Shown here in pieces: positions 1-31,145 of a DNA stretch of 37,282 nucleotides. The notes beneath the pieces were generated by a model, which was given only the letters and a program-made list of their open reading frames with translations, ran no database searches and was not told the origin of the DNA. The translations under genes were made by a program, and so were the position numbers. Origin of the DNA: Psammoneis japonica (Eukaryota); NCBI GenBank assembly GCA_008632985.1, contig QPGO01000189.1, positions 106,183 through 143,464 of the forward strand. The letters are read 5' to 3'. Position 1 is the stretch's first letter. Each line of letters begins with the position of its first letter.

Positions 1-1584
1 CTCCACCGACGTGCATGGGAAATGGTGCCAAGAACGGCAGATGTGAATGTGCCACCCGGCACATGGGCTTTCAAACTCAAACGACTCCCGGATGGTGCAC
101 CCTTGAAGTGCAAGGCACGACATTGCGTTCGCGGCGATCCACAGAAACACGGGATCGATTTTTTCGAGACCTGCGCGCCGGCAGTGCAATGGTCGTCCAT
201 GCGCCTTCTCCTCACCGCGGTGCTCAAGGAAGGTTGGACTGCACGTCAAGTGGACTGTGCTACAGCCTTCTGCCAAGCTGACATCAAGGAGAAGGCACAT
301 GTAGAGCCTCCCAAGGGTTTCCAGCCAAAATCGGGCGCCGATCTGGCACTGAAATTATTGAAAGGCCCACACGGCCTACGCCAGTCTCCCAAGTGCTTCT
401 ATGAAAAGCTGAGGGACGGATTGCTCGAAAGAGGATGGATTCAATCCGCCATTGACCCTTGTCTTTATTTCAAAAAGGGCATGTCATGTGTGGCACATGT
501 TGATGACACCGTGTTCGCCGGTGCATCGGCCCAAGCCTTGGAAGCAGAGATTGCCAAGTTGGGCATTTCTGATGATGAGCAACGCCATGTCTTTGATCTA
601 CGTGATGAAGGCGAAGTCGGTGACTTTCTAGGTGTCAAGATTCAAAAGCTCGAAGACGGCCGATTCCTCCTGACCCAACCCGGCCTAATTGAGAAAGTTC
701 TCCGCACCGCACAGATGACCAAGTGCAACGGCGCACCCACTCCTGCCTTGCCCACTCCTGCTGGCAGCGACACCGACGGGCCACCGTTCGACAAGCCTTA
801 TGACTGCCGTTCCGTGGTCGGCATGCTGATGCATCTAGCATCCAACAGCCGCCCGGACATTGCTTGCGCGACCCATCAAGTCGCACGGTTCTCCTGCGCA
901 CCCAAGGCCTCCCACGCTGCGGCTGTCAAGCGCATTCTTCGTCACCTGAAGGACACGGCCGACAAAGGACTCATCCTAACTCCAACCGCCGATCAACGAC
1001 TCGACTGCTATGTTGATGCTGATTTCGCGGGACTCTTCAGTGTTGAAGATGGACAAGATCCCACGTCTGTCAAGTCACGTGCGGGACATGTCATTTATTG
1101 TGCAGGATGTCCGATTGTCTGGGTGTCCAAGTTACAGACCCTCGTCGCACTCTCTGCCATGGAAGCCGAGTGTGTCGCCCTCTCCCAAGCGATGCGTGAT
1201 CTCATCCCCCTTCGCGAGATCGTGAAGGAAATCAACGCGCTCGTTTTCGGACAGCCGGACAGACAGACCGACATTTCGACACATTCGAAGGCTTTCCGAC
1301 ACGCCAACGACGGAACTGAGGATTCTCCCATTGACTCCACTAACCTCCCAGCATCCGTTGTGTACGAAGATAATGCTGCCTGCCTCCAATTCGCCCGCAT
1401 GCCAAAATTGTCCCCACGAACCAAGCACATCGGCATTCCCTGCCATTGGTTTCGTACTAAAGTTGAGGCTTTGGAGATCAAAATTGAGCCTGTGAGCTCA
1501 ACTGCACAGCTTGCTGACCAGTTTGCTAAAGGATTGACTGTTGATCTATTCTGTACTGGTCGCAAAGCCCTCATGGGCTGGTGA
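1..1584 (+). mobile_element. Ty1/Copia (CoDi-like) LTR retrotransposon A, RT-RNase H end of pol; frame open but mutated, 5' part outside window
   Basis: 520-aa ORF with Copia RT motifs (WAFKLKRLPDG..KARxCVRGD, GLRQSPK, DPCLY, HVDD at 496-507 in place of YVDD, SRPDIA) and RNase H motifs (CYVDADFAG, WVSKLQ, EAE, YEDN, RTKHI, ADQFxKGL). Most conserved Tyr residues are Cys or His. Confidence 0.95.
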
Positions 1585-1611
1585 CTGATAGTTCTCCTTC
1601 TCTTTTCGGTT

Positions 1612-1815
1612 GAGAGGGAGAGTCACGAGTCAACAACCGAGTCTGATTCACGGATGACGCTTCCGGTCATGGATCTCTTCTTCCGGAAGAAATGTCCGTT
1701 GAGTCTTCTAGCGACAGCAATCGGAGTGACACACACGACCGTTGGGTCATAATGTCATCTCCAATCCCTCGTGAGATCTTCTCACAATTCGTATCTTTGG
1801 CGTGTCTCATTGTCC
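1612..1815 (+). repeat. Polypurine tract (GAGAGGGAG, 1612-1620) and probable 3' LTR of Copia A; right end approximate
   Basis: Purine run 28 bp after the pol stop; the same PPT follows Copia B. No second LTR copy in the window to fix the boundary. Confidence 0.55.
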
Positions 1816-1822
1816 CAAAACT

Positions 1823-4800
1823 GCTTCTTGTCATCCTCTGTTGCATTGTACAACCTCAAGAGAGTCCTGAACTCTCCATCCTACACAGTGTGTTGTTGTG
1901 TCCCAAGTCTGATCCAACCAATGCACCCAAGCCCTCTTCTGATGAGGACGAGCTGGTCCGGACTGGGCTTCATTGTTGTGTGGTTGAGGACCCATCTCCT
2001 CCCACCCCGTGTGTTGCACACGTCTCCTGCAAGCCTGCTCCTGCATCTCAGAGGGAGTGCCCTCCAGTTCTTGTGGTCAAGACTGTCAAACCTGAAGATG
2101 CTGATGATTTCAGTGATTGCTTCAACAGCTGTGATGATCTCTTTTGGGACAACTCAATTGTCATGTTTCCAACCAAGCCCACCCCACCATCCATTGTTCC
2201 TGCCTTGGCCCCTCTGGCTCCTCTTGATGAACATTTCTTCAATGCCAAGTGCGAGCCCAAACCTGTGTTGGTCCCACCAGTTCCCAAGCTCACCATCCAT
2301 TGCTGTGGCATCTCCTCAAGCTCCCACTCTTCTGGATCTCTGCAATGCTTTGGAAAGGTCTCCTGTGGCTCATTTGCTCCTGGGATGATCCTCCTCCACC
2401 TCCTTGCCATGTCCGTGGCCTCCAGCACCAACCTGTGTTGCATCACCATCCTCATCATTGGGGCATGATTGTGTGCATGATTGCTCTTTGGCATTTTGTC
2501 TGTGGCAGCACTGCTCCTCCCCACCCCTTTCAGTCATTGGACCACCTCTCCTCTCAAACATTCCAAGTTGTCTCTGCTCTCAAACAGCATGTTGATCTGT
2601 CACCCGGTGCATTCGTTCAGCACCATGCCATCAAGGCCAGACAACTCAAATGTGAGTTAGCATGTTCAGAGGGAAACAAGTGAGACACATCCACTCTGCC
2701 TTTTGAGCTGTCCAAGTTGATGGACAAGAGTGAAGATGACGATTTCTTTGATGCACGCACAGAGCTGCCAGTTTGTCGGGAGTGCTTCTTTGATGCTGAA
2801 ACCTTCCATGAATCCAACTGCTCAAGCCCAGACATCTTTGGCATTGGCGACTTGTGTCACACCCACTTTTTCATTGGTTGCACTGCTGCTCCAGTGATTG
2901 CTCTGGAGGACATCCCTGCCTCTCATGCTTGGCATCCTCCCCTGCACTCTGTGCCATGTCTGGTGCAACACGACTCTCACGTCTTGCCACCAATCCCCAA
3001 GCCCTCTTCCACATTGGACCTCATGGACCTCCAGGTCATTTTTGATGCTGGTGCTTCACAGGCTGGCACACCTGACACCAATGACTTTGATGGTCCTGTC
3101 AGCTGTTTTTGCACTCCACTTGCCCTTGGCAGCATGGCTGACAGAATGCAAATTGTTGGCGAGGGCACCGTCACTTGGACCTTTCAAGCCAGGGAGGGCC
3201 ACAAAATCACTGGCCAGCTCTGCGCCTGTCTCGTGCCATCCTCCAAGGTTTGGCTCCTCTCTCCACACATTGTCTCTTCCATGCAGATGGTGTCAAAGGA
3301 CATTTTTAAGGCAAGAGCAAGATTTTCAAGGTTTGCTTTGATGAGACACCAGAGCTCACACTCAAGTGTGACAAGAACGCTCCCACTTGCCAATTGGCTG
3401 TGCAACTCTTGGCTCAATCCATGCACCACAAGTCAATCTGAGTGCAATCAGCAACCCAGACAATCTAAATCTGTCCACTGGACAGAAGCTCCTCAATGAA
3501 TGGCATGCACACTTTGGGCATCTCAATTGTCCCAGGATCCAAGCTCTTCTCCAAGGCCATCCATTCGAGGCAATGAAGTTCAAGGCTGCATCCAAGTGTG
3601 ATGTTCCCAAGTGTGACACATGCAAACATGCCAAGGCTCATCACCGTTCTTCATGGTCTGCTGTCAAGAAATCCAACCCTGAGCACAATGGGGCTTTGAA
3701 AGCTGAGCATCTCCAGCCCGGCCAGTCCATCAGCATGGATCACTTCAAATCGTGTCTCAAGGGCTGCACCTGCAATTCCCATGGAAAACCCTCCTCCCAG
3801 CAGCACACTGGCAGCTGTGTCTTTGTCAACCATGCCTCTGGTTACATCCACCTTGAACATCAAGTCAGACTCTCTGCTGTTGAAGCTGTTCAAGCAAAAC
3901 AGGCATGTGAGACCATGGCAATGGGACACGGCATGCCAGCAGCACTTTCAAGGCCAATCAGTTCATCTCCCATGTCCACAACTCCCAGCAATGCATGCAC
4001 TTCTGTGGCACAAATGCTCATCATCAAAATGGAGTTGCCGAGCACTCTGTTTGGCTGGCATCCAACATGGCTTGCGCCGCGATCCTCCATGCCTCCATTC
4101 GCTGGCATGGCAGTGTCAACAGCTCTCTTTGGCCCATGGCAGCCCACTGTGCTTCCCACATCTGCAACACCACTCCCGGCTTCCACGGTCTGTGTGGTTC
4201 CACCAACATCCATGCTGGCTCTGCCGTCCCACACCACCACCTCCGTGATCTCCATGTTTGGGGGTGTCCCGTCCGCATCTTGGATCCCAAGTTGCAGGAA
4301 GGGAAGAAACTTCCCAGTTGGCAGCTGCGTTCTTGGCACATGGTGTCTTTCTTGGTCTCAGCAACATTCATGCCAGTGAGGTGCCTCTGGTCCTCAATCT
4401 CAATGCTGGCTCCATTCATTTCTCCCCAGCACCACATTGCATTTGATGATCTCTTCACCATGGCTGCTTGTTTGATTGCAAGGGAGAGTGAGCCACCAGA
4501 TCACTGGGAAGAGTTGTGGTTGGAGAACACCACCCAAATCCCTTTAGACTCGTCCAACAGGCTGTTGTTTCTTCAAGATGACTGGCTCACTCCTGCTGAA
4601 CTTGAGCAGAAACAACAACATGAGACCAGGGAATGCAGTGTCTGAGCTGCACATTAACAGCAGCCAAACTTGCCACATCCCTCCAAGAAATCACAACGAG
4701 CAGCAGATTCTTTGCCATCCACAAGTCCACCATCTTCTGTGCCACAGATGTCAACAACTGCAGTTGATCTGTCACCACCACCATCGCCACCACACCAATG

Positions 4801-5401
4801 CCGTTGCTCCAAAACCCATCATTGCCAATGCCATCAGTTGATGATCCTCCGCCTTCAGTCTCACATCCACCACCCACTGGTGGCGATGGTCCAGACATGT
4901 CAGTCCCATCCATGACTGCTCCAGCCCCACCTGTGCCCTCATCAACAACTGAAACGCTGACTGTGTGTTGCTCTCAAGGGTTGAACACGGGTGTGCGCAA
5001 AACTGCTCTTTTTGCAGACGAAGTGTGTCTGGCCTTTGTGATCCCTGACAAGGTGGGGCACAACAGGCTCAGCTTGCCCACTTGGCTGAGATCCAGGCTG
5101 ACTGTGATTCAGGTGTTTTGCACATTCAGGACCCGCGGATCTACACCGCTGAGGTCAAACACGATGTGCATGATCCCAATGTTTGCAAGGCTCCCTCGGG
5201 CAATTTTGCCAAGCAATGCATTGAAGCCATGAAGACCAAGGCATTTGCTCTTGTCCACCATAAAACGTGGCAATTTGTGAAGTGCAAGAAGTCTGTGAAT
5301 GTGCTCAAGTCCACGCGGGCATTCAAGTTGAAACGATTGCCGGATGGCACACCTCTCAACTTCAAGGTGCAATTTTGTGTCTGTGGAGATCTGCAAAAAG
5401 A
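1823..5401 (+). mobile_element. Degenerate Copia B, 5' part (gag end, protease, GAG-pre-integrase, integrase, RT start)
   Basis: Protease VIFDAGAS (about 3035-3058, expected DTGAS); WHAHFGH..CDTC zinc-binding region (3500-3630); integrase HASGYIHLEHQ and HHQNGVAE (about 3830-4040); VWGCPV.ILDPKLQEGKKLP; RT start KLKRLPDGTPLNFKVQFCVCGDLQK ending at the LINE insertion. Many frameshifts; left boundary approximate. Confidence 0.88.
5386..5401 (+). repeat. 16-bp target-site duplication of the LINE (GAGATCTGCAAAAAGA), partner at 13973-13988
   Basis: Identical 16-mer on both sides. Removing the insert restores Copia RT ...CGDLQK-EGVNCFETCSPVVQW. Confidence 0.93.
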
Positions 5402-7272
5402 TAAAATGAAACCCAAAGTCTGCATTTTAAGTGCTGCTGCGCTTCCACCCTGCAACTCTGGCAACAAGCTAACCCACACTCCCAGCACACGTTGTGCAGG
5501 AGGAGCATGTGACAATTGGCCAGCATTGGCATTGCCGTCAGGCGATGCCAAACCAAAGCAACTGGTGACAGAACACATGCCCCGCAAAGCAAGCCGTTTG
5601 GCTTCCTTGATGCCAGACTTGAACATGGGCTTTGCCACAGCCAACCAGTTTCTCAGCTGATGAGCAGAGTGTGTCAAATGTTCTTTGACCAAATCAAACA
5701 GCTGTGACCTGTCTTTAGCCAAGCAATTGTCCATCTTGGAGCAAATGGCACACAATCTTCTGCTTCAGCACCCCGTTGTTGAGCTGATTTCCCAGTTTCA
5801 GAATCATGACAGTGCACCACATCATTGTGCAAATCCCACAGTTTCCACCATTTGGACCAAACAAAGCCACCAATTGTTGCCACCCAATCAAGTCTTTTCT
5901 CTTTGTCTGACAGTGAGCAACAAATGCGTGTCTCCAACAAGTGTGACAGCTGTGCTTCATTCCATGAAGCAGAGAACCTGCCACTGAAAATGTGCCACCA
6001 CCCATCCAATGTCTTCTTGTGAGTGAAACACAGCGTGGGCACTGCAATGAACATCATCAATGCAAAGCACTTCTTCTTGGAACCAGCCATCTAAAGCACA
6101 AAGAAGCATGTCTTGAAGTGCCGCGGACATGTTGATGTCATCACACTTTTTCCGGAGACCTTGAAGAAAGGTTTGTCACCACGCTTCATTGTGAGGGCAA
6201 CGGAGGATGTGATCGCGATCCTCCAGGGGGTGTTGGCAGTGAGTGCAACAGTTGGGACAGGTGGGATTGTGCCAATGAATGATCTTGTTGGTTGGAAGAA
6301 GATCTTGAACCAATTTTACCGCGCTGACCTTGCGCCTGACATTTTGTGACATGAGCTTTGAATGGACAGACCAGTCAACAGATCAAAACACTTCCTTGGA
6401 CCACCCACATTTCTCTCTCATGTGCTGCATCAAGGCAGGAATTGAAGCCTCACATCAAAGGACCGATTGGAACTTGGAGGTTTGGGTGCTGCCCTGAACA
6501 TGCAGGGCAGCGGCGCAACTGGGCATTGGGGGAGCTGTTGAAGTGTCGCTGTTGCACACACCTTGAAATCAAGTTGCCAGCATGTCAGCCCTGAAATTCA
6601 ATTTTGCAGGAGGGGATGGTGCATTGAATGGAGCATCTTTGTCCTGGTGTTCTTTAACCCAGTGCATGGACATGGAAGTGCCAGACTGTTGTGCAAATTC
6701 CTTTTCGTGCACCTGGTTCAATGACACAAAAAAAATCATGGAGAACATCCCAGTCGGGAGCCAAAGTGTCAGAAATGTGGTGACGGTGTCAACAATTGCG
6801 TTCTTTGTCCATCTCCTTGTTGTTGTCCAGGCACGGAGGCAAGGCCTTGAAGTTCTCAATGTTGTGCACCAGGGAAGAGTTGTCACAATGGCAGCCAATG
6901 CCCTTTTGAAAGGTGCGGTTGCAAAATTCCATCACGCGAAGAATGAATTGCACCACAGACAGAAAACCACAGGCTTCAGCACGACATGATGAAGGCCAAA
7001 AACAAACATCAGACCAGCACAGTCCACCAGATGAACACCATTGATCACCAACGTCCAGCAAAAGTGCCGTTAAAGTGTGCGATGGAGCCATTGCTCCCAA
7101 CGGTCACCCAACACTGAGACATTGATTCCGCCAGTTCAAACACAGACAAGTGCATGGTCAGATTGCAGAACAAAGAAGATTCCCATTTGGGCAGGGACTG
7201 CAACCATGCAACAAAGTCTCCAGGGATCAGAAGGTTGGAAGGAACTGAAACCGGGGAACAAGTGGACCTGAG

Positions 7273-8085
7273 ACCCGTCGCAGTCGTGACGAAGGGGTGT
7301 AATTCGGGGTGTAATTTTGGGGTGTAAAAACGCGCGTCGCGCGTTTTTACACCCCTCAAAAAAAAATACAGCCAACAATTACCCGTCTTGAGGCATGTAA
7401 TTTTTGCCTGTAATTTTTGGTAAGTGCCTGTAATTTTTCGTACGAAAACAGACTCATCATCGTCCATGACGGCAACAAACATCAGAATGTCGAACAACAA
7501 TGGCAACCAACAATCAACGACGAACTTCAACCAGTAAGAGATGCAAGAACTCGTTGATGGGGAACTATTATGATATATTTATGAAAGAAATAATGGCGAA
7601 AAACGATGAGATTGCCATCAACGGACAACAAAATGAATGCAAGTTCATGCCATTTCAGAAGAAAAACGCGTCATATGGTCGCTGAAACCTTGGCTATGGA
7701 TACAATAGTAACATATGATGTTAATCACGTTATTGTAAATGTACTAGACTTGTCAGAACAATGATTTGATATGCGTAAGGTCGCAGCGGAGCCGCCGAAC
7801 GCCATGGTGTTTTGATGCTGTCAATAGAATGTTCAGTTACGCGTACAAATAAGTTCATTAAAATTAGAGATATAGAGTTATTCCTGCTTTATTATCAACA
7901 ATTCTTGAGGAGTATATATTCAATGAATATATCATTCCTCGCAGAATTACAGGCATCCAATTTCACACTCTCGCAGTCGTGAGAAAATCGGGTGTAATTT
8001 TGGGGTGTAAATTCGCGCGATGCGCGTTTTTACACCCCCAAATTACACCCCGAATTACACCCCAATTTCCACGACTGCGACGGGT
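7273..8085. mobile_element. 813-bp non-autonomous TIR element (MITE-like) inserted in the LINE
   Basis: Termini ACCCGTCGCAGTCGTG...CACGACTGCGACGGGT; 5-bp TSD CTGAG (7268-7272 and 8086-8090); subterminal GGGGTGTAA repeats in inverted orientation. The empty site restores the LINE frame (QWCLRSTCSPVS). No transposase ORF. Confidence 0.92.
7319..7355. repeat. Perfect 18-bp-arm palindrome
   Basis: GGGGTGTAAAAACGCGCG-T-CGCGCGTTTTTACACCCC. Confidence 0.95.
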
Positions 8086-11000: not shown

Positions 11001-13988
11001 CAACGCAAATCAGTCAACTTGACAGACCACTCCAGTTCTTGATGAAGGTGACACTCCTTTGCTGCAGCCAAGGAGAATTGCGGCAAGTCACGATCCAATC
11101 TTTTGGCCAGTTTGTGATCCGGTGTGTCAGCACCCACGTCTCAACTCTCCCGCATGGGACCGATGGATTGCAGGCAGTCTGCGACCTGTGCTTTTGAGGA
11201 TGCCTGCAAATCTCAAAAAGCTGCTTTGGGCAGATCAGCTGTGGGGTTGCTGAAAAGGGCAATGGTGTCAAGATTGACACAACAGGTGCAGTGATCCAAA
11301 GCAACACGGTGGCCAAAGGCTTCACATCTGCCCAAATGCACTGCAGCCAAGTCCCCTGGAGCAGTGAGAATGCAGTCCAACTGCCAAGATCCTCTTGCAC
11401 ATGTGGAAAAATCTGTGTCACCTGAGAGAGAGAACATCACATCAGAGAGATTGAGGTGTTGGGTGAGAGCAGAGAAGGAGTCCGTGTCCAGTGCAAAATC
11501 TGTGTTGATGTCTCCAAACAAGATCTCTTCACGTCCGGGTCCGCAAGGAAGTCTTGCAACAAACAAGACAAATCAGAGAAAAAGGCCTTCCTGGGATCAA
11601 GTGTCTGATGGCCTTGTTGTTGCAGCAGGTGGAGCTGTTGAGCACAAGCTGCAGTCTTCCCAGGCTGCAACTGATGTTTGGCACAAACCTGTGACAAGAG
11701 ACAAACATCACTTGATGTCCATTCCTGCCATCAAATGTCTGTGTGGACCAACGGCCTAAAGGATCGGAGTCTTGAGATTGACAATGAGCTGACACCAAGC
11801 TGCACAACAGCAGCGCAGCACCACCTGGTTTACGCTGGGTGGAGAATGGAGTTGAGCTGGAAGAGAAGGCACCTTGACCATGAAGAAGAGAGGTGGCAAC
11901 CGTCAAACGGCAGACCAAAAGAGCTGAATGCTGAGCAGCATCCAAGAAAACTTCAGATGCTCCTGCTGCATCTGCCTGAATTTCATTTGCAATCTGGCAG
12001 CAACTGGCAATGTCACCTCCACGTTTGTCAAACTTGCAACTGCTGGCATTGACTGCGTGCAAACAGGTGTGGTGCAGTGACTTGGGCAACAAGGGATCTC
12101 CAACAGGCTTGTTGGTTTTCAGTCAAGAGAAACCAATGTGTCGTTCAGTGGGAGGCTGGTGTTGGCACTCCAATCCGGCGTTTCCATTTGATTGTGAAGT
12201 TTTTGGGTGGAGCTCTGTGTGGGCAGACTGGACTTGAGAAGGTGGACAATTTGATTCATCTCTCTTGCATGCTCGTCATTTGGTGGGAGCACTGAGACTG
12301 CAAGGCAGCCACATCTTGGGCACGTTGTTTCGAAAATTTGGAGTCAAGCGCTTCCATGTCCTGGGAATGCTGCTGACGAAGCTCTTCCAAGGCCTTGTCA
12401 TTCTTCTCTTGCATTTTAGACAAAGTTTGTTGAACTTCAGCCATCTGAGTCAAGGTGAGGGAAGAACTGAATGCAGACTGGGCTTCCTGGGTGCAAGTGT
12501 GTTGGGGAGGAGCATGCAGGACAGTCCTGCACAACCAAATGTTGGAGGCAAGAATGACGGAAGCTGAGCAACACCATGAGGAGGAACTAGAGAGCCTTGA
12601 CCAGTGCAGCAACCAAGACTGCCTTGACCTTCATAACCTCTGCCAGGGTGAGATGACGGCCAAGGAGGACGGTGAGCACCTGAAGCCTGAGCATCAGTCA
12701 AAGGAGAGATGTCCAAAAAGGTCAGTGACTCAAGACTGTGGATGCCAGCCAACATGATGGATTTGCTCGTGTCCGACTGTTCGTCTGGGACACCAGAAAC
12801 CTGAGGACAGTCAGGGAAGGGTGACGGATGAGATTCGTCTGGGAGATCTGGAATTAAATTCATGATGCAGGTGGAGACAGCAGCCCTTACATTCCTAAAA
12901 TCCATGTGATTGACAAGGATGTTGCAACGTCCTTCGGTGGCATTGGCGGCAGGAAAAATTGCAGTCACACCTTTCAAAGCCTCAAGGTTGTTCTCCAAGA
13001 AAAACATCATGTCAGGGGAAGCATGCAACAGCGGGACAGCATGGGTGTTGTCATTGCGATGAGCTTGGATTTTAACGGCATTGTGGAAAACAAGGGGAGA
13101 CAAACAACAAGTCTTTGCCATGACGACATGAGACGGGAGCTTGTTGGATGTGCACAGCAAGGCTTTCCCAGCAGTGCAACAGTTGTCCTTGACAACTTCA
13201 ACAGCAAAGGTTGCTGTGTGAAGGGGAGCGGCGATGTTGTTGTTGTCAGCACAAATGGAAACAGGTGCCAAATGGAGCTTCAGCATCTCAGACTTGAATT
13301 CACCCAGATTGCTTGGAAACAATTTCGCAGCTTCATCAACCGGAGCATGCTCAGTTGCAGCTGCAATGCAACATGCAGGAGTGGCCATGTCAACAACAGA
13401 TTCATTCCAGTGGTTGCATTTCATGCCCATGTCATTCAGATCCAGGACACTCTGAATGTGCGGGTGAGAGCAAAGTTCAAGTAAAGAGATTTTTGTGAGA
13501 ATGTGGTGGCACAAGCGATGAGCAACCAGACGTTTCTCACCACTGCAAGCAGCAGAAATTGCAAAGTGTCATTCATGTTGCAAGGACGGTGCCCACTCTG
13601 CCACATTGACATTGGTGATTTGATCATTGTGGTTGTCAAGAATCTTCATGTCCTTGTGGCACGTGAACAAAACTTGTTGAAGAACTTGGAGATGGGCAGC
13701 AACAAGGGACACGGGCTTGCATGAAGCCTCAGGGCCACGAGTGTCAAAACAAAGAGTGATCTCTTCAAACTGTTGCTCTTTTGGCTTGGAAGAAGTCTTG
13801 GGAGAGGCATTGTCAACAGCAACATTGTCTGCCATGTTGGCATCATTGACAGGAGGAGAGGTGTGGCTGCCATCAGCGGCGGAAGAAGACGCCATGGTGG
13901 TTGGCTGTTCTACGGAGATCCTGGTGTTGAAAACACGCAGGTGACTTCAATGCCAATGTTCACAGAAATGCAGAGATCTGCAAAAAGA

Positions 13989-15388
13989 GGGAGTCAACTG
14001 CTTTGAGACCTGCTCTCCAGTGGTCCAATGGTTGACTGTCCATCTTGTGTTGAGCACTGTCATGCAAGAGGGATGGACCACCCGTCAGGTCAACTGCGCC
14101 AATGCTTTTCTTGTGCAGGCCAAGATGATGGAAGATGTTTGCATCAAACCACCCAAGTGTTTTGCTCCCAGTTTGGGATCCAATGTTGTTTTGAAGCTTC
14201 TTGAGAGTCTCTGCAGACTTGAGCAAGCCCCCAAGTGCTTCTTTGACAAGCTGCATGAAGGATTCTTAGAACAAGGGTGGGCACAATCACAAGTTGACCC
14301 TTGCCTGTTTTTCAAGGATGGAATGATTTGTGTGGTCTGTGTTGATGATGCCATTCTTGCCAGAAAGGATGGAGCCACCCCAGAAAGTGAGATCAAGGCT
14401 CCAGGCATCCAAGATGATGAACAATGCCATGCATTCAAGTTGCAAAACAAGGGAGAAGTTGGTGGTGACTTTCTCGGCATCAAGATTTGCAAGACGGGTC
14501 CCAAGGAATTTCTCCTTGCTCAGCCTGGACTTGTTGACAAAGTCCTCAAGGCAGCTGGTGTGGAAGACAGCCACTCTTCCCCTGCTTCAAGTGCTGCCTC
14601 TCCATGTCATGCGGACAAAGAGGGAGCCAAATTTGACAAGAACTGGGGCTGCCGTTCCATCATCGGCATGTTGATGCGTTTGTCCTCCAACTCCCGACCT
14701 GACATCTGCTGCACCATGCATCAGGCCACCTGCTTCTCCCATGCTCCCAAGCACATTTGCAAGGCACTGAGGACAAGGGACTCCACCCATGCCCCCTGGC
14801 AACAATGAACATGTCGATTGTTTCATTGACGCCAACTTGCTGGCCTCTGTGGACACGAAGACTCCCAAGACCCGGTTGGCATCAAGTCTCACACCGGGTG
14901 TGTCATCTTGCATGTGATTGTCCTGTTTCATGGGTTTCTAAGCTGCAGAGGCAAACTGCACTCTCTCCACTGTGGAGGCCAAGCACCTTGCTCTGTTGGT
15001 GGCAATGCATGACCTGATTCCAATTCGTGAAATTTTGAAGGAATTCAAGCGTCATGTTTTTGGACTCAAGGACTGCAAGACCCCCACCACTGCCAAGTCC
15101 AAGGCCTTTTCAGATGTGAAGGATGGCACGATCCCCTCTTTGGCAGTTTACAAGATGATCAGGCATGCCTCAAGTTTGCAAAAATGGCTGAGTTGTCTCC
15201 ACGCACCAAGCACATTGGCATTCCCTGTCATTGGTTCCGTGCCAAGGTCAAGGCTCTTGAGATCCAGATTGAGCCTGTGGGAACTGATTCCCAGCCAGCT
15301 GATCAACTTGCAAAGGGACTTGTTGCTGACAAGTTTGAATCTGGTTGGTTGAGTCTCTCAGGCTTGCAGCTCTGCGGTTGAGAGGGAG
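13989..15388 (+). mobile_element. Degenerate Copia B, 3' part (RT-RNase H, PPT)
   Basis: VVQW, EQAPK, DPCLF, CVDD (14338-14349), SRPDI, WVSKLQ, RTKHIGIPCHWFR, ADQLAKGL; PPT GAGAGGGAG at about 15380-15388. Confidence 0.92.
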
Positions 15389-15555
15389 AGTTGACATCTG
15401 TCATTCCACCTGTCAACTGCATGCAATCGCACGCTCCAATTTCAAATTCTGACACCAAAATCTCTGATCAATGTTGCAGTCATGATTTTCAGTCAATGGC
15501 TTTTGAAACACCAACAGCTGCCAGCACACAACCTGGAGCATCAGCTCTTTTGACA
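15389..15555 (+). repeat. Probable 3' LTR of Copia B (second copy about 24903-25070); end uncertain
   Basis: Directly follows the PPT; a candidate ...TTGACA end at 15555. No 5' LTR recognised. Confidence 0.4.
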
Positions 15556-15582
15556 TTCACAGTCATGCATTGGCGCAACAAG

Positions 15583-15805
15583 TCGGGGGACGTCTTTGGA
15601 AGTGAGATCATCAAAAAAGTCTGTGCACCAGTGCATTTGGGGTGCAAAAATTCCCAGACACTCGAAATTTGATGCCGATGATGATGGCAAAAGATGGCTC
15701 CCAGGGGCTTCTATTTTGCAGACTGCAATGCATTCAACACCTTTTGTTGACACCTTCATGACTGTTGCAAGCAATGATGAAAAAATCTTGCTGAGAATCG
15801 GGGTG
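15583..15805 (-). repeat. About 220-bp repeat, inverted and hypermutated copy of the sequence upstream of the CRN-like genes; other copies 18853-18978 (+), 25097-25323 (-), 27432-27686 (+)
   Basis: Reverse complement aligns to 27432-27686 and 18853-18978; most substitutions are TA->TG/CA or CG->TG/CA. Confidence 0.88.
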
Positions 15806-16141
15806 AAATGCAATGTTTCTCTCTTCTTGGCGATGAGCAGCTGCAAGCTTGGCGACTCTTTGCCATCACTCACCACCCTCTTGTTTGCTTTTCTCTTCTC
15901 TGGAGATGTCATCATTTGCTTGTCTTTGACTCCAGGTGGGTGCATGCTGACAAGGAACCACACTTTGCACTGCTCTGATTTGACCCACAGTGGAAAACAA
16001 GAAGCAAACATCCTTTTGCTCGAGTCCACACCCAAACATGCTCTCCTGCACACAAGAACAGTGGATCAACAGATCTCCTTTGTTGTCTCATCACTTGATT
16101 GAAACTTCATCTAGATTTCCCTCATGCCACTGATTTGACTT

Positions 16142-17880
16142 GTGGAGAGCCATGGAGCCCAAGAAGAATTCAAAGAGGAACTTGTGCAATGCAGAACAGC
16201 AGCGCAAGGCTCAATTCTCAGTTCTGCAAGGCATTGGTTGCCAGCCAAGGCAACTCAGAATGGTGCCATTCCTTGCAAGATTGACCACAATGAGAATGAG
16301 TCAGGCTTTGATGTTTCTTCTTGCTCTGTCAAGTGCACCGGGTGGGCCCCTGTTGAGACATGCTCTGATGAGGTTGCCAAAGATCAAGCAGGCTCTGATG
16401 TTCTGGAGATGAAGTGCTTTGCAGTGTTCCACTTTTGTGCCAGCAATTTCTGCAACAAGGGCTCCTCCAAAGGACACAATTCTGAATGCAGAGAGCACAT
16501 TTTAGAGTTGGGCAAACACCTTGGGGCAGTCACCAAGTTCAATGAAGAGTGCATGAATGGCATTTGTGGATGCTTTGCCAGCTGCATGCAGGCTGTTGAA
16601 GATCAAGAAGCCACAGCTGCAGATCAAGATGCTGAAGATGGGCGTGACTGTGGTGATGTGTGGGGTGATGATGGCAAGCGCAAGCTTGATGAAGATGCCC
16701 AAGATCATAAAGTGGAAGATGAAGCTGAGGCCGATGCCACAGAGGAGGAAGAACTGGCCTGTGATCACAATGATGAATGTCAAGATCACTCAATGAGCGC
16801 ATCAGGCATTGCCACAATCAAGCCATGGATGTGGGTGATTTCATGGAACATGTGGAAATGACTTTGGTGATGACGACTGTGGCCCAGTGCACCACATGGC
16901 ATCCCATTGTTGTGACGGTGGTTCTGAAGTCACCATTGGGGTCTCTTCTCTGATCAACATTGCTCCAACCATTGGAGACAAAGTGTCCCTTTCAGGAACT
17001 CGTCAGAGTGCAGTTCAATGCAACCAACTCTGTTTCTTGCAACAAAGATGAGTGTGTCTCCTGTCTTGATGATAAAGAAGGGGCACGTTTGTCATCTTTG
17101 GCTGCCTTCCGTTTGCTTTGTGTTTCACTCAAATGCTTTCTGCTTGAAGAATTGAAGCACGCCTTTGCCCCTTCTTTTGTTTTGTGCAAAGCAATTCTGG
17201 CATGGTTGGGATGAAAAACAAGATGAAAACAATACAACAACAACAACAACCAGAACAACGGCTGTGATGAATCTGAAGTTTTGGAGGTTTGCCACAAGCT
17301 CTGTGAACTGAGTGCAAAGCATCAACAGAACTTTGTCTTTGACACCAGCAAATGTCAACACGCTGGTTGTCAGGTGAGCAGCAATTGTCTGCAAACTGCG
17401 TTTTGCATCATTGTTCTTGACTTTTCACCTCAATGACTTGCATCTCTTGTTCTAATTTCACAGACTGCTGTCCAGAAGGCCAACCAAGAGCAAGTCTGCA
17501 ACTGCATGACAACCTTGAAGAAAGGAAATTGCAACAAAAGGGTGAGATTGTTGTCGGTTGGAATCACCCGCTTCACATTTCTGATTGGAACAACAAACAA
17601 GCTCACTTTGATGAGTTCTCCTGTGTCAAGGAGCAGGCATCAAAAGTGACTCCCAGCCACGTTGCTGCCCTTGACTTCTTTGGAATTGGCAGCTTGGCAT
17701 TGTGTGTATGGCATGTGTCATTTGGGCTCAGCTTGCCAACAAGAACATGCCTTGGAGACCTTGCTGAGGAAAGTGCACGCTGACCCGACAAACATCACAA
17801 GGCAGACCTCCGGCATTGTCCTTGGAAAGTCTGGCAGCAGCAATGATGGCATCTCCAGCAAAAAGCCCCACTCATCCAAT
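16142..17880 (+). pseudogene. Decayed silicanin-1-like (diatom type I membrane protein) gene, copy 1
   Basis: Reverting Cys/His to Tyr gives FDVSSYSVKYTG...ETYSDEV..KRFAVFRFC..NFC...SEYxEYILEL..YL, an acidic region with RKL, a C-terminal TM segment (VAALxFFGIGSLALCV) and a tail RQTSGIVLG. This resembles silicanin-family architecture; recognised from memory, not by search. About 17090-17430 looks foreign. Confidence 0.6.
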
Positions 17881-18107
17881 GATGATCTTTTGCACTTTGA
17901 ACCATCCAAGAACAATCGAAGATGTGAGAAGTGAAGTTCTCTGAAGTTTGCATGGTGTGTGCAACAGCGGTTCCCAGTTGCAACAAGCTTCATTTCATTT
18001 TTTGTGCGCCAGCAGCAAATCTAGAAATGCACTGTTGCCAAACTGCAAAATTGCAACAGAGGCACATTAATCATGACAACAGTGAAGCAAGCACCTTTCT
18101 TCTCATG

Positions 18108-18790
18108 TCACTGCAATCCCAAGCAAGCTGAAATGACGACGTGGTCACAGGGTTCCACTTGATTGGGAAAGGGCCCTGTTGGCCACGTTGCGGTTCACAA
18201 TTTTTTTCACCTTTGTGACTCCCCAGGCTTTTGACAAGAAAATGTAATCAAGAGTTCCAACAAAGGGATCATCTTGCCTCATGTGCTTGGCAAAATCTGG
18301 TTCTCCACAAATGGACTCTGCACAAGCACTCTTGAGTGCACAGCAGGAGATCATTCCACGCCATGCTTGGGCTTGGGACAGCTTGGATCACTCTTGTCCA
18401 GCTTGCCAGTGACAAGCAGTTAGTGGGCATCAAGTCAGGCAAGAGGTTGAACCCTCCCACCAGAGTGCAATGCAAGCCGCAGGACAGATCTTGAACATGT
18501 CTTGCAGTTTGCATGAATGCGCAATGCCGCGGGTGCACAAAATGCACACACGGCAATGCAAAAGGCTTCATTGGTTCTCTTGTCCTGTGAGGTTGTGGTG
18601 TGGAGAATGTTGTGGTGATGCTGAGATATTTTCCAGTGATCAATCGGTGTTTCCCTTGATGTCCAACAACCCAAATCTTCAAGGGAATGTTGGTTGGCCC
18701 CAGAGACTGTGCAGTCCATTCCAAGCACGCGGCGCCAAGCCACGTTCTGGTTCTGCAGGCCACCCACTGACTCGCTTGTCACTTAGCCAA
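18108..18790 (-). pseudogene. Decayed CCR4/nocturnin-like endonuclease-exonuclease-phosphatase (EEP) gene, 3' part
   Basis: Motifs LVGGFN (for LxGDFN), LKSAC(Y)A..GEPDF, DPFVGTLDYIFLS, EPCDH (for PSDH); frameshifted; 5' part missing. Confidence 0.75.
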
Positions 18791-19023
18791 GAAACATTAA
18801 CGTCGATTGTTTCAAACACAGAGATTGGGGACAACGTCATAGCTGCACCCGCGGGAGCCGTCTTTTGCCATCATCGTCGGCATCAAATTTCGAGTGTCTC
18901 GGAATTATTGTACCTCAAACGCACTGGCGTACAGACTTTTTTCGACATTCTCACCGCACTTCCAAAGACGTCCCCCAAACCCAACGAAGCGCAGTGAAAT
19001 TCGAGATTTCTGCGGTCAACACC

Positions 19024-21671: not shown

Positions 21672-21869
21672 TCAAAGCAAAAGGCAGATCTCTGTGCTGG
21701 AAAACAATGAAAATGCCGCGTATCTAGCTTCTCAGTGTGGACTTTTGTTTGTCGACTACTATGACACGTCGACTCAAGAGAGAATCCCTTGAATGGAGCC
21801 AATCAGAAGAACGCTCTGGTGGCTGTGTCCCGAAGCTTGAATGTTGAACAATAATTACGCAGACTTGAT

Positions 21870-22456: not shown

Positions 22457-22748
22457 GACTTCTCCATGCCCGCGGTATCTTATGACGTGTCGTGTCGGAG
22501 GGAAAAATTCAAAAAAAAAAAGAGAAATCAAAAATTTCGAAAAAATGATGGGCAGAGGAGGTTGCCCGCGCAAAAGTCATAGCCAGACTGACTCACAAAG
22601 GTGCCGAAGAGACAAGACACCGACCAGCGACCAGGTGTTGTTTGTTATTACTTCTTCTCTTTGTTGTTTGTGGAGGCCAACCCTACCAACATATCGGTGT
22701 GCAGTATCCTTATTGTCACAGTTGTACCTCATCTCATCATAGTCTACA

Positions 22749-23368: not shown

Positions 23369-23426
23369 AGATAGCATTCCCATCATTAAACTTTGTCCTT
23401 TATCTGCACAATCTATCTACACTTTT

Positions 23427-24902: not shown

Positions 24903-25655
24903 GAGTTGACGTTTGTCATTCTGCCTGTTGACTGCGTGCAATCGCACGCTCCAATTTCAAGTTCCAACATCAATGTCTCTGATGGATGTTGCAGTCATGG
25001 TTTTTAGTCAACAGCTTTTGCAACACCAACAGCTGCTAGTTTACAACCTAGAGCATCAGCTCTTTTGACATCCACAGTTGTGCATCGGCGCAACAAGTTG
25101 GGGGACGTCTTTGGAAGTGAGAGTGTCGAAAAAAGTCTGTGCACCAGTGCGCTTGGAGCACAAAAATTCCAAGACGAGACCAAAAATTTGATGCCGACAA
25201 TGATGGCAAAAGACAACTCCCAGGGGGTTCCATTTTGTAGACTGCAACGCATTCAACGCCTTTTGTTGACACCTTCATGACTGTTGCAAGTGATGATGAA
25301 AAAATCTCACTGAGAATTGGGGCGAAATGCGGTGTTTCTCACTTCTTGACAATGAGTGGCTGCAAGCTTGGTGACTCTTTGCCATCACTCACTGCCCTCT
25401 TGTTTGCTTTTCCATTCTCTGGAGACATTGCCACTTGTTTGTCTTTGACTCCAGGTGGGTCCATGCTGGTGGGAAACCACACTTCGCACCGCTCTGATTT
25501 GACTCACAGTGGAAAATGAGAAGTGAGCATCCTTTTGCTCAAGTTCACATCCAAACATGCTCTCCTGAACACAAAAACAGTGGACCAATGGATCTCCTTT
25601 GTAATCTCATAACTTGGTTGAAACCTGATCTAGATTTCCCTTGTGCCGCTGATTT

Positions 25656-27326: not shown

Positions 27327-27724
27327 GCCACAGCTACACCCGCATGGAAGCATTGCATCATCAATGGGAGCATGACTCCACGAAGCTTCGCGCTGTGCCC
27401 CGCCATGCAACAACCATCAAAGTGTGCTCAACTGCCCCGATTCTCGGCGAGATGTTTTCATCATCACTTGTAACAGGTATGAAGGCTTCAATAAAAGGCG
27501 TTGAATACATTGTAGTCTACAAAATAGAAGCCCCCGGGAGCCGTCTTTTGCCATCATCGTCGGCATCAAATTTCGAGTGTCTCGGAATTTATACCTCAAA
27601 CGCACTGGCGTACAGACTTTTTTCGGCATTCTCACGCCACGCACTACTGTACACACACTTCCATCCTCCCTCCAAAGACGTTCCCCAAACGCAGTGAAAG
27701 TCGAGATTTCTGCGGGTCAACACC

Positions 27725-31085: not shown

Positions 31086-31145
31086 AGAGATAGTATTCCC
31101 ATCATTAAGCTTTGTCCTTTATCTGCACAATCTATCTACACTTAT

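What the first reader, a model, noticed from the sequence alone, without database searches (positions are those of the whole stretch)
1..18790. Domain-restricted TpA->TpG/CpA hypermutation: a candidate genome-defence system distinct from RIP and CpG decay
Seen: TA dinucleotides are nearly absent across 1.8-7.2 kb, 8.1-18.8 kb and 24.9-27.4 kb (by eye about 10 in 1820-5400) but common in genes and in the MITE. Conserved TE residues are changed as TA->TG or TA->CA predicts: Y->C/H (KARHC, ETCAP, GPHG, EAEC, IPCHW), L->P, V->A, I->M, and T->A after a T-ending codon (DAGAS, QFAKG). Established: 5mC deamination and fungal RIP give C->T and lower GC; neither converts TA to TG/CA. Inference: an A:T->G:C mutator acting on both strands at TpA in silenced chromatin. 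Candidates are a DNA-acting TadA/ADAT-like adenine deaminase (engineered TadA editors favour a 5' T), a modified adenine, or error-prone repair. I do not know of a description of this in diatoms but cannot search the literature.
Basis: partly seen in the sequence, partly recalled or inferred. Interest (0 to 1): 0.93.

Follow-up and report, generated by a model that had tools for sequence, protein, structure and literature searches.

The report
TpA-to-TpG/CpA hypermutation of diatom transposons
In a pennate diatom, about 18 kb of transposon-derived DNA has had nearly every TA step turned into TG or CA by a very context-specific A:T-to-G:C mutation process, a signature so far reported only in a 2026 preprint on an unrelated alga.

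Summary
In 18,336 bp of three domains (1883-7070, 8057-18783, 25050-27470) only 65 TA remain, against about 624 expected at the rate of the neighbouring genes. Three tests that fix the direction of change agree.

- Paralogue pairs: ancestral TA became TG or CA and nothing else.
- Conserved codons: 24 of 30 conserved Tyr codons of Copia elements are now Cys (TGY) or His (CAY).
- Codon boundaries: A>G is about 20 to 30 times more frequent after T than after any other base.

The changes arose in place on DNA, on both strands, before and after a local tandem duplication.

The two processes are separable: the Copia copy at 1-1584 lost its Tyr codons but kept 17 of 17 Arg codons and CG o/e 0.90.

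A further preference appears: TAY is hit about four times faster than TAR.

The host is a pennate diatom. The same TpA-only signature was measured de novo in Bigelowiella natans in a 2026 preprint, and my searches found no diatom report.

Verdict: a new member of a just-described kind. The enzyme is unknown.

The parts
1..1584 (+). Copia RT/RNase H open frame (copy 1), cut by the window start. It is hypermutated at TA only (TA o/e 0.28, CG o/e 0.90 over 1-1882).
   Evidence: Pfam RVT_2 at 3e-33. Of 12 conserved Tyr columns, 6 are His, 5 are Cys and 1 is kept. 17 of 17 Arg columns are kept, 15 of them as CGN. The catalytic YVDD motif reads HVDD.
1883..7070 (.). TA/CG-poor domain I. It holds a degraded Copia gag/pre-integrase/integrase and RT N-terminal stretch (about 2684-5660, + strand).
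   Evidence: TA o/e 0.02-0.12 and CG 0.16-0.41. gag_pre-integrs hit at 2.4e-4 on 3372-4379. tblastn of Copia homologues covers 4136-5402.
7268..8090 (.). MITE-like insert with terminal inverted repeats, normal in TA and CG, lying inside the mutated domain.
   Evidence: TIRs 7268-7355 and 8002-8090 at 89% identity. 5-18 TA per 200 bp against 0-1 in the flanks. A contig of run X1 joins 7267 to 8086, so an empty site exists and the insertion is polymorphic.
8057..18783 (.). TA/CG-poor domain II. It holds an unnamed repeat-family ORF (12450-13568, - strand), a degraded Copia RT/RNase H (copy 2, 13708-15363, + strand) and the TE-derived unit 14990-17810.
   Evidence: TA o/e 0.02-0.17 and CG 0.16-0.40. 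RVT_2 at 2.4e-16 on 13945-14808. In copy 2, 14 conserved Tyr columns give 8 Cys, 2 His, 1 Arg, 2 Phe and 1 kept, and only 5 of 12 Arg are kept. The ORF at 12450-13568 has 62 distant homologues with no Pfam domain. Its Tyr content is 0.27% against their median 2.9%, and its Cys content 5.1% against 0.5%.
14990..17810 (+). Copy A of the TE-derived part of a tandem segmental duplication. Its partner is 24494-27325.
   Evidence: 88.7% identity over 2796 aligned bp, with 261 transitions and 54 transversions. 54 sites read TG in one copy and CA in the other.
25050..27470 (.). TA/CG-poor domain III, which is copy B of the duplicated TE-derived unit. Its left edge (24494-25050) keeps TA and CG that copy A has lost.
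15585..15803 (+). L1, a roughly 200-bp segment inside the mutated domain. It is a paralogue of unmutated segments upstream of the Crinkler-N genes. L2 is its tandem twin at 25117-25323.
   Evidence: Alignment A1. 8 of 9 ancestral TA sites are changed, always to TG or CA.
18853..18978 (-). R1, the unmutated inverted paralogue of L1/L2, just outside the domain boundary. R2 is at 27434-27635.
   Evidence: The boundary is sharp within 200 bp at about 18.8 kb and 27.4 kb.
18787..21671 (+). Host gene with a Crinkler N-terminal domain, interrupted by an N gap at 19825-20700. It is not mutated. Its duplicate lies at 28063-30365.
   Evidence: Pfam Crinkler at 1.5e-6. The duplicates are 94-98.5% identical with normal TA and 0 TG/CA discordant sites.
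31146..32945 (-). ATG7 gene, used as a composition control and as the taxon marker.
   Evidence: Pfam ATG7_N and ThiF. The best named relatives are raphid pennate diatoms.

Best explanation
A mutation process acting on DNA in place converts TpA to TpG or CpA (A:T>G:C transitions on either strand) in transposon-derived domains of a pennate diatom genome. It has run almost to saturation. It is separate from, and faster than, the 5mC-type CpG>TpG/CpA decay that affects most of the same domains. Shown here: the direction of change, the strict requirement for a 5' T, equal use of both strands, a roughly 4-fold preference for a 3' pyrimidine (TAY over TAR), action before and after a local tandem duplication, and sparing of adjacent genes, of duplicated genes and of a young MITE. 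Inferred, not shown: that the agent is an enzyme, most likely a DNA-acting adenine deaminase of the TadA/ADAT kind. Such enzymes see U33-A34 in their tRNA substrates, so a 5' T requirement is built in. Also inferred: that it is recruited to silenced, methylated chromatin and serves as genome defence by destroying Tyr codons and other TA-containing codons of mobile elements.
For: Composition: only TA and CG are lost and only TG and CA are gained. About 1352 sites are lost and about 1270 gained. Paralogue test (A1): at 9 ancestral TA sites, L1 has changed 8 and L2 has changed 8, all to TG or CA. Codon test against 120 Copia homologues: 24 of 30 conserved Tyr columns are Cys (TGY, 15) or His (CAY, 9), and 3 are kept. 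In copy 1, second-position A>G occurs in 5 of 12 cases after T against 1 of 76 after C, A or G (p=1e-4). First-position T>C occurs in 6 of 12 cases before A against 0 of 42 otherwise (p=4e-5). Across codon boundaries, A>G occurs in 8 of 11 cases after T against 1 of 39 otherwise (p=3e-6) in copy 1, and in 11 of 14 against 3 of 56 (p=5e-8) in the other copies. Lys AAR codons are kept in 16 of 17 columns and AA/TT o/e is unchanged, so AA is not a target. In place on DNA: the tandem duplicates carry 54 TG-versus-CA sites against 0 in three duplicated gene segments. 3 of the 9 polarised TA sites differ between L1 and L2. A host-derived segment is mutated only where it lies inside the domain. Separable from CpG decay: copy 1 keeps 17 of 17 Arg columns and CG o/e 0.90. 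Five environmental Copia loci show CpG loss with normal TA. TAY preference: for Tyr codons preceded by a pyrimidine, the outcome is Cys 12 to His 2 (p=0.013). Survival of TA is 0.014 for RTAY, 0.074 for mixed contexts and 0.34 for YTAR, and an independent-strand model predicts 0.069 for mixed. Not an assembly artefact: contigs of run X1 at about 58x match, for example 1329 bp with 1 difference. The same TpA-only A>G/T>C signature was measured de novo in B. natans (preprint Results and Discussion read).
Against: No enzyme, DNA modification, methylation or chromatin data are available, and the genome is not held, so the agent and its targeting are inference. A>G on one strand cannot be told from T>C on the other, so thymine-directed chemistry fits equally well. 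Ancestral states come from protein consensus at about 50-61% identity or from paralogues, not from a family consensus. The TAY estimate assumes that the ancestral tetranucleotide content resembled that of the genes, and a direct tetranucleotide balance was inconclusive. Recent differences between the window and run X1 inside the domains are mostly CG<->TG/CA rather than at TA. Current activity is therefore not shown, although few TA targets are left. A high-copy MITE inside the domain is untouched. Run X1 may be the strain from which the window was assembled.
Confidence: 0.74

Rival explanations
1. Thymine-directed chemistry. A thymine in 5'-(R)TA is enzymatically modified or oxidised (for example by a TET/JBP-type hydroxylase to 5hmU or 5fU). 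It then mispairs with G or is mis-repaired, giving T>C on either strand.
For: The sequence signature is identical by symmetry. TAY>TGY on one strand is RTA>RCA on the other. It shares the same domain restriction and in-place behaviour.
Against: Nothing in the sequence favours it over adenine deamination. From recall, modified thymine is known in dinoflagellates and kinetoplastids but not reported in diatoms. The 5' T requirement has a ready explanation for tRNA-type adenine deaminases and none here.
Confidence: 0.15
2. Error-prone repair synthesis. Pol-eta-like WA>WG errors arise during long-patch repair of lesions or T:G mismatches in methylated heterochromatin.
For: The domains are also CpG-decayed, so T:G mismatches would be frequent there. 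From recall, Pol eta has an A>G bias at WA motifs.
Against: WA includes AA, yet AA/TT o/e is 1.17 in both the poor and the normal DNA. Lys AAR codons are kept in 16 of 17 columns while Tyr is kept in 1 of 12. Copy 1 is TA-mutated with no CpG loss. No strand-coordinated runs are seen: 27 runs against 27.7 expected.
Confidence: 0.05
3. RNA-level A-to-I hyperediting of retrotransposon transcripts (ADAR- or ADAT-like), fixed by reverse transcription before integration.
For: The Copia elements replicate through RNA. From recall, RNA editors prefer a 5' U.
Against: Mutations continued after a DNA-level tandem duplication that includes host genes. A host-derived non-TE segment and a non-Copia family are affected. 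Both strands are hit equally (Cys 15, His 9). The 3' preference is for a pyrimidine, not for G.
Confidence: 0.03
4. No mutation at all. The elements would be natively TA-poor through codon usage or selection against TA, or the region would be foreign DNA of different composition.
For: One environmental Copia (L069) is TA- and CG-poor yet looks functional: 18 of its 25 TA sit at codon positions 1-2, almost all of them Tyr codons.
Against: In the window, conserved and catalytic Tyr residues are replaced (YVDD reads HVDD or CVDD). The paralogues outside the domain keep TA. The 120 closest homologues have 0-2 Cys/His at 14 Tyr columns, against 11 of 12 in copy 1.
Confidence: 0.02
5. Sequencing or assembly artefact.
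For: The window contains two N gaps and a collapsed-looking duplication.
Against: Contigs of a public DNA run cover all 30 bins of 1-19800 and agree over long pieces. Examples are 1329 bp with 1 difference and 3301 bp with 14 differences. The pattern respects codon and paralogue logic.
Confidence: 0.01

Closest known systems
TpA-restricted hypermutation of integrated viral DNA in Bigelowiella natans (Mettrop et al., bioRxiv 10.64898/2026.01.13.699255; outline, Results and Discussion read)
   Same: Exclusively TpA>TpG/CpA (A>G/T>C) on both strands. It is local to foreign or mobile DNA. [quoted passage not shown] RT and DDE Pfam families are enriched among TpA-depleted CDS. An ADAT2-like DNA adenine deaminase is proposed.
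   Different: The host belongs to a different supergroup (a rhizarian, against a diatom here). There the rate was measured de novo in mutation-accumulation lines on NCLDV and virophage inserts that are still TA-rich (Rho 0.45 or higher). Here only the end state is seen, near saturation (o/e 0.02-0.1), on LTR-retrotransposon domains. The main text I searched has no mention of CpG, of trinucleotide context or of diatoms. Its supplements could not be read.
Repeat-induced point mutation (RIP) of ascomycete fungi
   Same: Context-specific transition hypermutation that inactivates mobile elements in place and leaves a dinucleotide scar.
   Different: The direction is opposite. RIP makes TpA from CpA and lowers GC. 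Here TpA is destroyed and GC rises. RIP is triggered by duplication, whereas here 1.4-kb gene duplicates that are 98.5% identical are spared.
5-methylcytosine deamination (CpG decay) of methylated transposons
   Same: It produces TpG/CpA. It is present in the same domains (CG o/e 0.29) and is still the main source of differences from run X1.
   Different: It cannot remove TpA. Copy 1-1584 has the TpA signature with CpG intact. Five environmental Copia loci show CpG decay with normal TA.
tRNA adenosine deaminases TadA/ADAT2-ADAT3 and TadA-derived adenine base editors (recalled knowledge, plus statements in the preprint)
   Same: The chemistry is A>I, read as G. The natural target A34 always follows U33, which would explain a strict 5' T. 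Bacterial TadA's target is U-A-C, which matches the TAY preference.
   Different: The natural enzymes act on tRNA. No such gene could be examined here because the genome is not held. Eukaryotic ADAT2/3 substrates mostly have a purine at +1.
ADAR hyperediting and APOBEC editing of retroelements in animals (recalled)
   Same: Deaminase-driven hypermutation used against viruses and retroelements.
   Different: ADAR acts on dsRNA, tolerates a 5' A and prefers a 3' G. APOBEC gives C>T/G>A. Neither gives a TpA-only signature on DNA in place.

Membership tests
TpA-restricted localized hypermutation (B. natans type) | Substitutions are A>G/T>C and fall on TpA (TpA>TpG/CpA) | tested here: met
   For example, A>G occurs in 8 of 11 cases after T against 1 of 39 otherwise, and all 16 changed copies of the 9 ancestral TA sites in L1 and L2 became TG or CA.
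TpA-restricted localized hypermutation (B. natans type) | Confined to discrete regions of foreign or mobile origin, with neighbouring genes unaffected | tested here: met
   Boundaries are sharp within 200 bp. The domains hold Copia and an unnamed repeat family. Genes are at TA o/e 0.44-0.71. The targets here are transposons rather than integrated viruses.
TpA-restricted localized hypermutation (B. natans type) | De novo mutation rate orders of magnitude above background, measured across generations | not testable with these tools
   Only one run, held as contigs, was available. The differences seen were mostly at CpG.
TpA-restricted localized hypermutation (B. natans type) | Long-term scar: TpA depletion coupled to CpA+TpG enrichment in clusters of 3 kb or more | tested here: met
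Fungal RIP | C>T at CpA (raises TpA, lowers GC) | tested here: not met
   TpA o/e is 0.05 and GC is 49.1% against 46.9% in the normal parts. The direction is opposite.
Fungal RIP | Triggered by sequence duplication, with both copies mutated | tested here: not met
   Duplicated gene segments (94-98.5% identical) have normal TA and 0 TG/CA discordant sites. R1 and R2 are unmutated while L1 and L2 are mutated.
5mC-driven CpG decay | Loss of CpG to TpG/CpA | tested here: met
   CG o/e is 0.29. Arg CGN codons became His, Gln, Cys or Trp in copy 2. This is a second, co-located process, not the explanation of the TA loss.
5mC-driven CpG decay | Accounts for the whole signature | tested here: not met
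   About 559 TA sites are lost. Copy 1 has TA loss with CG o/e 0.90 and 17 of 17 Arg kept.
ADAR-type RNA hyperediting of retroelements | Editing occurs on RNA before integration, with 5' U or A tolerated and a 3' G preferred | tested here: not met
   Events occurred in place after the duplication. AA is untouched. The 3' preference is for a pyrimidine.
Pol-eta WA mutation signature | A>G at both TA and AA | tested here: not met
   AA/TT o/e is 1.17 in both poor and normal DNA. Lys is kept in 16 of 17 columns against Tyr in 1 of 12.
TadA/ADAT-like DNA adenine deaminase system | A CDA-fold deaminase gene (HxE...PCxxC) that acts on DNA | not testable with these tools
   No whole genome is held. 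No deaminase gene lies in the window.

The most novel reading that the evidence does not exclude
Diatoms and chlorarachniophytes would share an enzyme-driven genome-defence system that edits adenine in 5'-TAY-3' on DNA. It would mark newly silenced mobile DNA before, and independently of, cytosine methylation decay, and erase Tyr and other TA codons. A DNA-acting adenine deaminase of TadA type would be the effector. Mobile elements would counter-evolve by purging dispensable TA. The environmental Copia L069, which looks functional, fits this: 18 of its 25 TA sit at codon positions 1-2, almost all of them Tyr codons.
Probability: 0.3. Interest if true: 0.92.

Novelty: new member of a known kind. 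Interest (0 to 1): 0.75.

Why it matters
A natural, targeted A:T>G:C mutator on DNA would be the mirror image of RIP and APOBEC, and possibly a natural counterpart of engineered adenine base editors. Until a 2026 preprint on one rhizarian alga, nothing of the kind was described. Finding the same TpA-only scar, at saturation, on LTR retrotransposons of a pennate diatom shows that the process is not a peculiarity of one species or of integrated giant viruses. Two features add testable constraints on the enzyme and on the order of events in TE silencing: its separability from CpG decay and its TAY preference. It also moves the question into diatoms, a group with genetic tools. In practice, such domains yield long false ORFs in all frames (TAA and TAG are erased) and Tyr-free pseudo-proteins, which mislead gene callers and homology searches.

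Tried and rejected
- The whole genome is not held, so there is no genome-wide map, no family consensus and no search for deaminase genes.
The taxon came from named ATG7 relatives instead.
- No RNA holder was listed for the stretch, so nothing can be said on expression.
- Run X2 held next to nothing of the stretch.
- A test for strand-coordinated runs at the 54 TG/CA discordant sites found none: 27 runs against 27.7 expected. These sites mix TA and CG ancestry.
- A tetranucleotide mass balance, meant to tell 'TAY' from 'RTA' on one strand, was inconclusive because TE and gene ancestral compositions differ.
- A purine/pyrimidine-alphabet self-comparison, which is blind to transitions, found no further repeats or LTR pairs beyond those.
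- The 372-aa ORF at 12450-13568 has only distant, unnamed homologues (about 25% identity, no Pfam domain). The column-level Tyr test failed there: 4 conserved Tyr columns, none Cys or His. Only the composition is informative.
- The top 120 Copia homologue proteins show no hypermutated member, with 0-2 of 14 Tyr columns as Cys or His. The list is biased towards intact copies.
- Of 80 environmental Copia loci, only L069 and L045 are TA-poor, and both keep their conserved Tyr (10 of 13 and 8 of 13). They are not decayed copies of the window's kind.
- Our earlier findings gave nothing for this genome or its look-alikes. The 'TpA' word hits were phage or operon cases that do not bear on this.
- DUF6824 has no paper in the library.
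- The preprint's supplements (per-mutation tables) are closed, so I could not compare flanking context.

Full report
**Observation.**
Sliding 1-kb windows and the list of all TA positions confirm the finding. TA o/e falls to 0.02-0.12 across about 1.9-7.1 kb, 8.1-18.8 kb and 25.0-27.5 kb, and sits at 0.44-0.71 in the genes.

Pooled, the three poor domains (18,336 bp) hold 65 TA (o/e 0.05). The normal parts (15,491 bp) hold 571 TA (o/e 0.53). At the normal rate about 624 TA would be expected in the poor domains (Poisson P = 5e-181).

TG and CA are raised (1.76 and 1.71, against 1.21 and 1.16). All other 12 dinucleotides stay at 0.89-1.17. The books balance: about 559 TA and about 793 CG sites are missing, and about 1270 TG+CA are in excess. 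Roughly two fifths of the TG/CA gain therefore comes from TA and three fifths from CG.

Boundaries are sharp within 200 bp at about 1.8, 7.2, 8.2, 18.8 and 27.4 kb.

**Anatomy.**
- 1-1584 is the RT/RNase H part of a Copia element (RVT_2, 3e-33).
- 2684-5660 holds a degraded Copia gag/pre-integrase/RT N-terminal stretch.
- 13708-15363 is a second degraded RT/RNase H copy, and 24494-24878 a third fragment.
- 12450-13568 (- strand) belongs to an unnamed family with 62 distant homologues and no Pfam domain.
- 7268-8090 is a MITE-like insert with 89%-identical terminal inverted repeats.

From 14990 onward the locus is a tandem segmental duplication:
- 14990-17810 matches 24494-27325 (TE-derived, both TA-poor).
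- 18848-19824 matches 27531-28519.
- 20701-22074 matches 29396-30768.
- 23051-24496 matches 30768-32303 (host genes).

A roughly 200-bp segment occurs four times. Two copies lie inside the poor domains (L1 15585-15803, L2 25117-25323). Two lie inverted just outside them, upstream of the Crinkler-N genes (R1 18853-18978, R2 27434-27635).

The host genes are two Crinkler-N genes, GNAT and SDR fragments, ATG7 and a DUF6824 cluster.

**Direction and context of change.** Three independent tests fix the direction.

1. Paralogues (alignment A1). Nine TA sites are ancestral, supported by the unmutated R copies. L1 has changed 8 and L2 has changed 8, always to TG or CA. CG sites likewise became TG or CA.

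2. Conserved codons. The window was compared with 120 Copia homologues, using columns where at least 70% of at least 10 homologues agree.
   - Of 30 conserved Tyr columns in the four Copia pieces, 15 are now Cys (TGY), 9 are His (CAY), 3 are kept and 3 are other. Two of the 30 are the same ancestral site in the tandem copies.
   - In copy 1 alone, Tyr is 11 of 12 Cys/His, while Phe is kept 17 of 19, Cys 6 of 6, Lys 16 of 17 and Arg 17 of 17.
   - The catalytic YVDD motif reads HVDD in copy 1 and CVDD in copy 2.
   - Within codons of copy 1, A>G at the second position occurs in 5 of 12 cases after T, against 1 of 76 after C, A or G (Fisher p = 1e-4). T>C at the first position occurs in 6 of 12 cases before A, against 0 of 42 otherwise (p = 4e-5, using the counts).

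3. Codon boundaries. First-position A>G (Thr>Ala, Ile>Val, Met>Val, Lys>Glu, Asn>Asp) occurs in 8 of 11 columns when the preceding base is T, against 1 of 39 otherwise in copy 1 (p = 3e-6). In the other copies it occurs in 11 of 14 against 3 of 56 (p = 5e-8).

The unnamed family at 12450-13568 is too distant for a column test. Its composition agrees, though: Tyr 0.27% against a homologue median of 2.9%, Cys 5.1% against 0.5%, His 5.9% against 3.6%.

**In place, on DNA, on both strands, and not triggered by repeats.**
- The TE-derived tandem copies are 88.7% identical (2796 bp; 261 transitions, 54 transversions). They carry 54 sites where one copy has TG and the other CA. Each such site needs two independent hits on one ancestral TA or CG. 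The three duplicated gene segments (94.3%, 98.5% and 94.8% identical) have none.
- Of 315 differences, 183 involve TA/CG/TG/CA states. The remaining 132 (4.7%) match the divergence of the gene segments.
- At the nine polarised TA sites, six share the same outcome in L1 and L2 and three differ (TG versus CA, TA versus CA, CA versus TA). The process therefore ran before and after the duplication.
- CG sites are mostly discordant between L1 and L2, so CpG decay is later or slower.
- Both strands are used: Cys 15 and His 9, with no runs of one polarity (27 runs against 27.7 expected).
- Gene duplicates of 1.4 kb at 98.5% identity are untouched, and R1/R2 are untouched while L1/L2 are mutated. Targeting is therefore by position or domain, not by homology as in RIP.
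- The left edge of copy B (24494-25050), next to a gene fragment, keeps TA and CG that copy A, buried in the long domain, has lost.
- The MITE inside the domain is unmutated. A contig of run X1 bridges 7267 to 8086, so the insertion is polymorphic and probably young.

**Relation to CpG decay.**
The two processes share domains but are separable. Region 1-1882 has TA o/e 0.28 with CG o/e 0.90. Copy 1 lost 11 of 12 conserved Tyr yet kept 17 of 17 Arg, 15 of them as CGN. In copy 2 only 5 of 12 Arg remain, the rest being His, Gln, Cys or Trp. Conversely, five of 80 environmental Copia loci show CpG loss (o/e 0.03-0.29) with normal TA. TA loss thus appears to come first and to run faster. GC stays near neutral (49.1% against 46.9%) because the two processes offset each other.

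**Extended context.**
- Surviving TA in the poor domains are mostly YTAR: 35 of 65, against 87 of 574 in normal DNA. RTAY is nearly gone: 3 of 65, against 180 of 574 (chi-square p = 4e-14).
- Survival relative to normal DNA is 0.014 (RTAY), 0.074 (mixed) and 0.34 (YTAR). A model in which each strand's A is hit independently predicts 0.069 for the mixed class. It gives a rate about 4 times higher when the 3' neighbour is a pyrimidine.
- The polarised Tyr codons agree. In Y-TAY contexts the sense-strand A (3' pyrimidine) was hit 12 times and the antisense A (3' purine) twice (binomial p = 0.013). In the symmetric R-TAY contexts the split is 3 to 7 (not significant).
- This rests on small numbers and on taking gene DNA as a proxy for ancestral TE composition. 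A direct tetranucleotide balance was inconclusive.

**Reads.**
One public DNA run (X1, coded organism A) holds 79% of the sampled words of 9000-18990. Its contigs cover all 30 bins of 1-19800 at about 58x outside the high-copy parts, and long pieces agree: 1329 bp with 1 difference, and 3301 bp with 14 differences and 27 gap letters. The TG/CA bases are therefore not an assembly artefact, although X1 may be the strain that was assembled.

I annotated the 40 best-supported differences listed (181 more were not shown). Of these, 30 lie inside the poor domains, and 17 of those toggle CG with TG/CA. Only one of the 30 involves TA (4479), and it is paired with a change at 4480. CpG decay is thus ongoing, and current TA activity is not shown, because few targets remain.

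**Host.**
The best named relatives of the 599-aa ATG7 frame are raphid pennate diatoms: Seminavis robusta 59%, Mayamaea pseudoterrestris 59%, Cylindrotheca closterium 57%, Nitzschia inconspicua 57%, and Bacillariaceae MAGs. Unnamed hits reach 67%. The window also holds three or four DUF6824 genes, a family I recall as typical of diatoms. The long uninterrupted exons also argue, from recall, against intron-rich B. natans.

**Literature.**
Full-text searches return one relevant work, Mettrop et al., bioRxiv 10.64898/2026.01.13.699255. I read its outline, Results and Discussion, and searched the text for terms.

In B. natans mutation-accumulation lines, 230 of 231 single-nucleotide mutations in an integrated NCLDV and a virophage are A>G/T>C. 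The authors state that all of these fall on TpA, at about 6e-7 per site per generation. They report 124 TpA-depleted, CpA+TpG-enriched clusters, enrichment of RT and DDE domains, and a proposed ADAT2-like DNA adenine deaminase. The text has no occurrence of 'diatom', 'CpG' or 'trinucleotide'.

Searches aimed at diatoms found nothing. Passages of Maumus et al. 2009 (PMC2806351), Veluchamy et al. 2015 (PMC4504042) and the P. tricornutum mutation-accumulation study (PMC6604790, in which CG is the most mutable context) also show nothing of the kind. One search found no other natural A>G hypermutation at the DNA level.

**Elsewhere.**
- Among the 120 best Copia homologue proteins, none shows the Tyr>Cys/His pattern (0-2 of 14 columns).
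- Among 80 environmental Copia loci, two are poor in both TA and CG: L069 (TA o/e 0.02-0.18) and L045.
- Both keep conserved Tyr (10 of 13 and 8 of 13).
- L069 has a nearly open gag-pol frame in which 18 of 25 TA sit at codon positions 1-2, almost all of them Tyr codons.
- L069 therefore looks like a functional element purged of dispensable TA. That could be adaptation to the same pressure, but its host is unknown.

**Mechanism.**
Shown: an A:T>G:C transition process that is TpA-specific, symmetric between strands, acts in place and is restricted to domains.

Inferred: enzymatic adenine deamination on DNA. tRNA adenosine deaminases always meet U33 before A34, which would hard-wire the 5' T. 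Bacterial TadA's U-A-C target would fit the TAY preference. Both points are recalled. The preprint argues the same enzyme class.

By symmetry, a thymine-directed modification at RTA cannot be excluded. Pol-eta-type repair is disfavoured because AA is untouched. RNA editing before integration is excluded for the post-duplication events and for the host-derived segment. Native composition is excluded by the replaced catalytic and conserved residues.

Recruitment to silenced chromatin is inferred from the co-located CpG decay. From recall, diatom TEs are CpG-methylated. Copy 1 shows that methylation decay is not required.

**Verdict.**
The phenomenon belongs to the kind just described in B. natans, so it is not categorically new. 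It is new for diatoms, and it adds four things: saturation on LTR retrotransposons, independence from and precedence over CpG decay, position-based rather than homology-based targeting, and a TAY preference.

Noticed in passing
window 14990-32303: There is a tandem segmental duplication with units of about 9.5 and 7.8 kb. Each unit holds a TE-derived part, a Crinkler-N gene and a GNAT/SDR stretch. The junction at about 24494 truncates a second ATG7 copy: 23051-24496 matches 30768-32303 at 92-95% identity and lacks the N-terminal part. Both Crinkler-N copies carry an N gap at the equivalent place, which suggests that the duplication caused assembly trouble.
   Followed up: partly
window 7268-8090: A MITE-like element with roughly 88-bp TIRs has normal TA and CG inside a saturated domain. 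Word depth in run X1 is far higher there than in the flanks (949 against 60-90), so it belongs to a repeated family. One X1 contig joins 7267 to 8086, which is an empty site.
   Followed up: partly
L069 1-4349 (also L045): An environmental Copia element has TA o/e 0.02-0.18 and CG o/e 0.03-0.15 but a nearly open 1378-codon gag-pol frame. 18 of its 25 TA sit at codon positions 1-2, almost all of them Tyr codons. It may be an element adapted to a TA- and CG-removing host. The host is unknown.
   Followed up: partly
L043, L054, L023, L028, L036: These environmental Copia loci show strong CpG depletion (o/e 0.03-0.29) with normal TA (0.44-0.65). This is ordinary methylation decay without the TpA process.
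   Followed up: no
window 34249-37281: A cluster of three or four DUF6824 genes lies on both strands (E-values 4e-22 to 3.5e-5; the weakest, at 24.6 bits, is below Pfam's cut-off of 27). Two of them are paralogous at 77% DNA identity (34355-34627 against 35282-35558).
   Followed up: no
window 1-19000, all six frames: Because TAA and TAG are erased, the mutated domains show many overlapping open frames of 100-370 codons on both strands. One search lists 73 ORFs of at least 100 aa overlapping 1-19800, a few of which run through the N gap. Such domains will yield spurious Tyr-poor, Cys/His-rich gene models.
   Followed up: no
window 12450-13568 (-): This 372-aa frame belongs to an uncharacterised protein family. 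It has 62 representatives at E<=1e-3, most of them about 450-660 aa, and no Pfam domain. It may be a mobile-element protein.
   Followed up: partly
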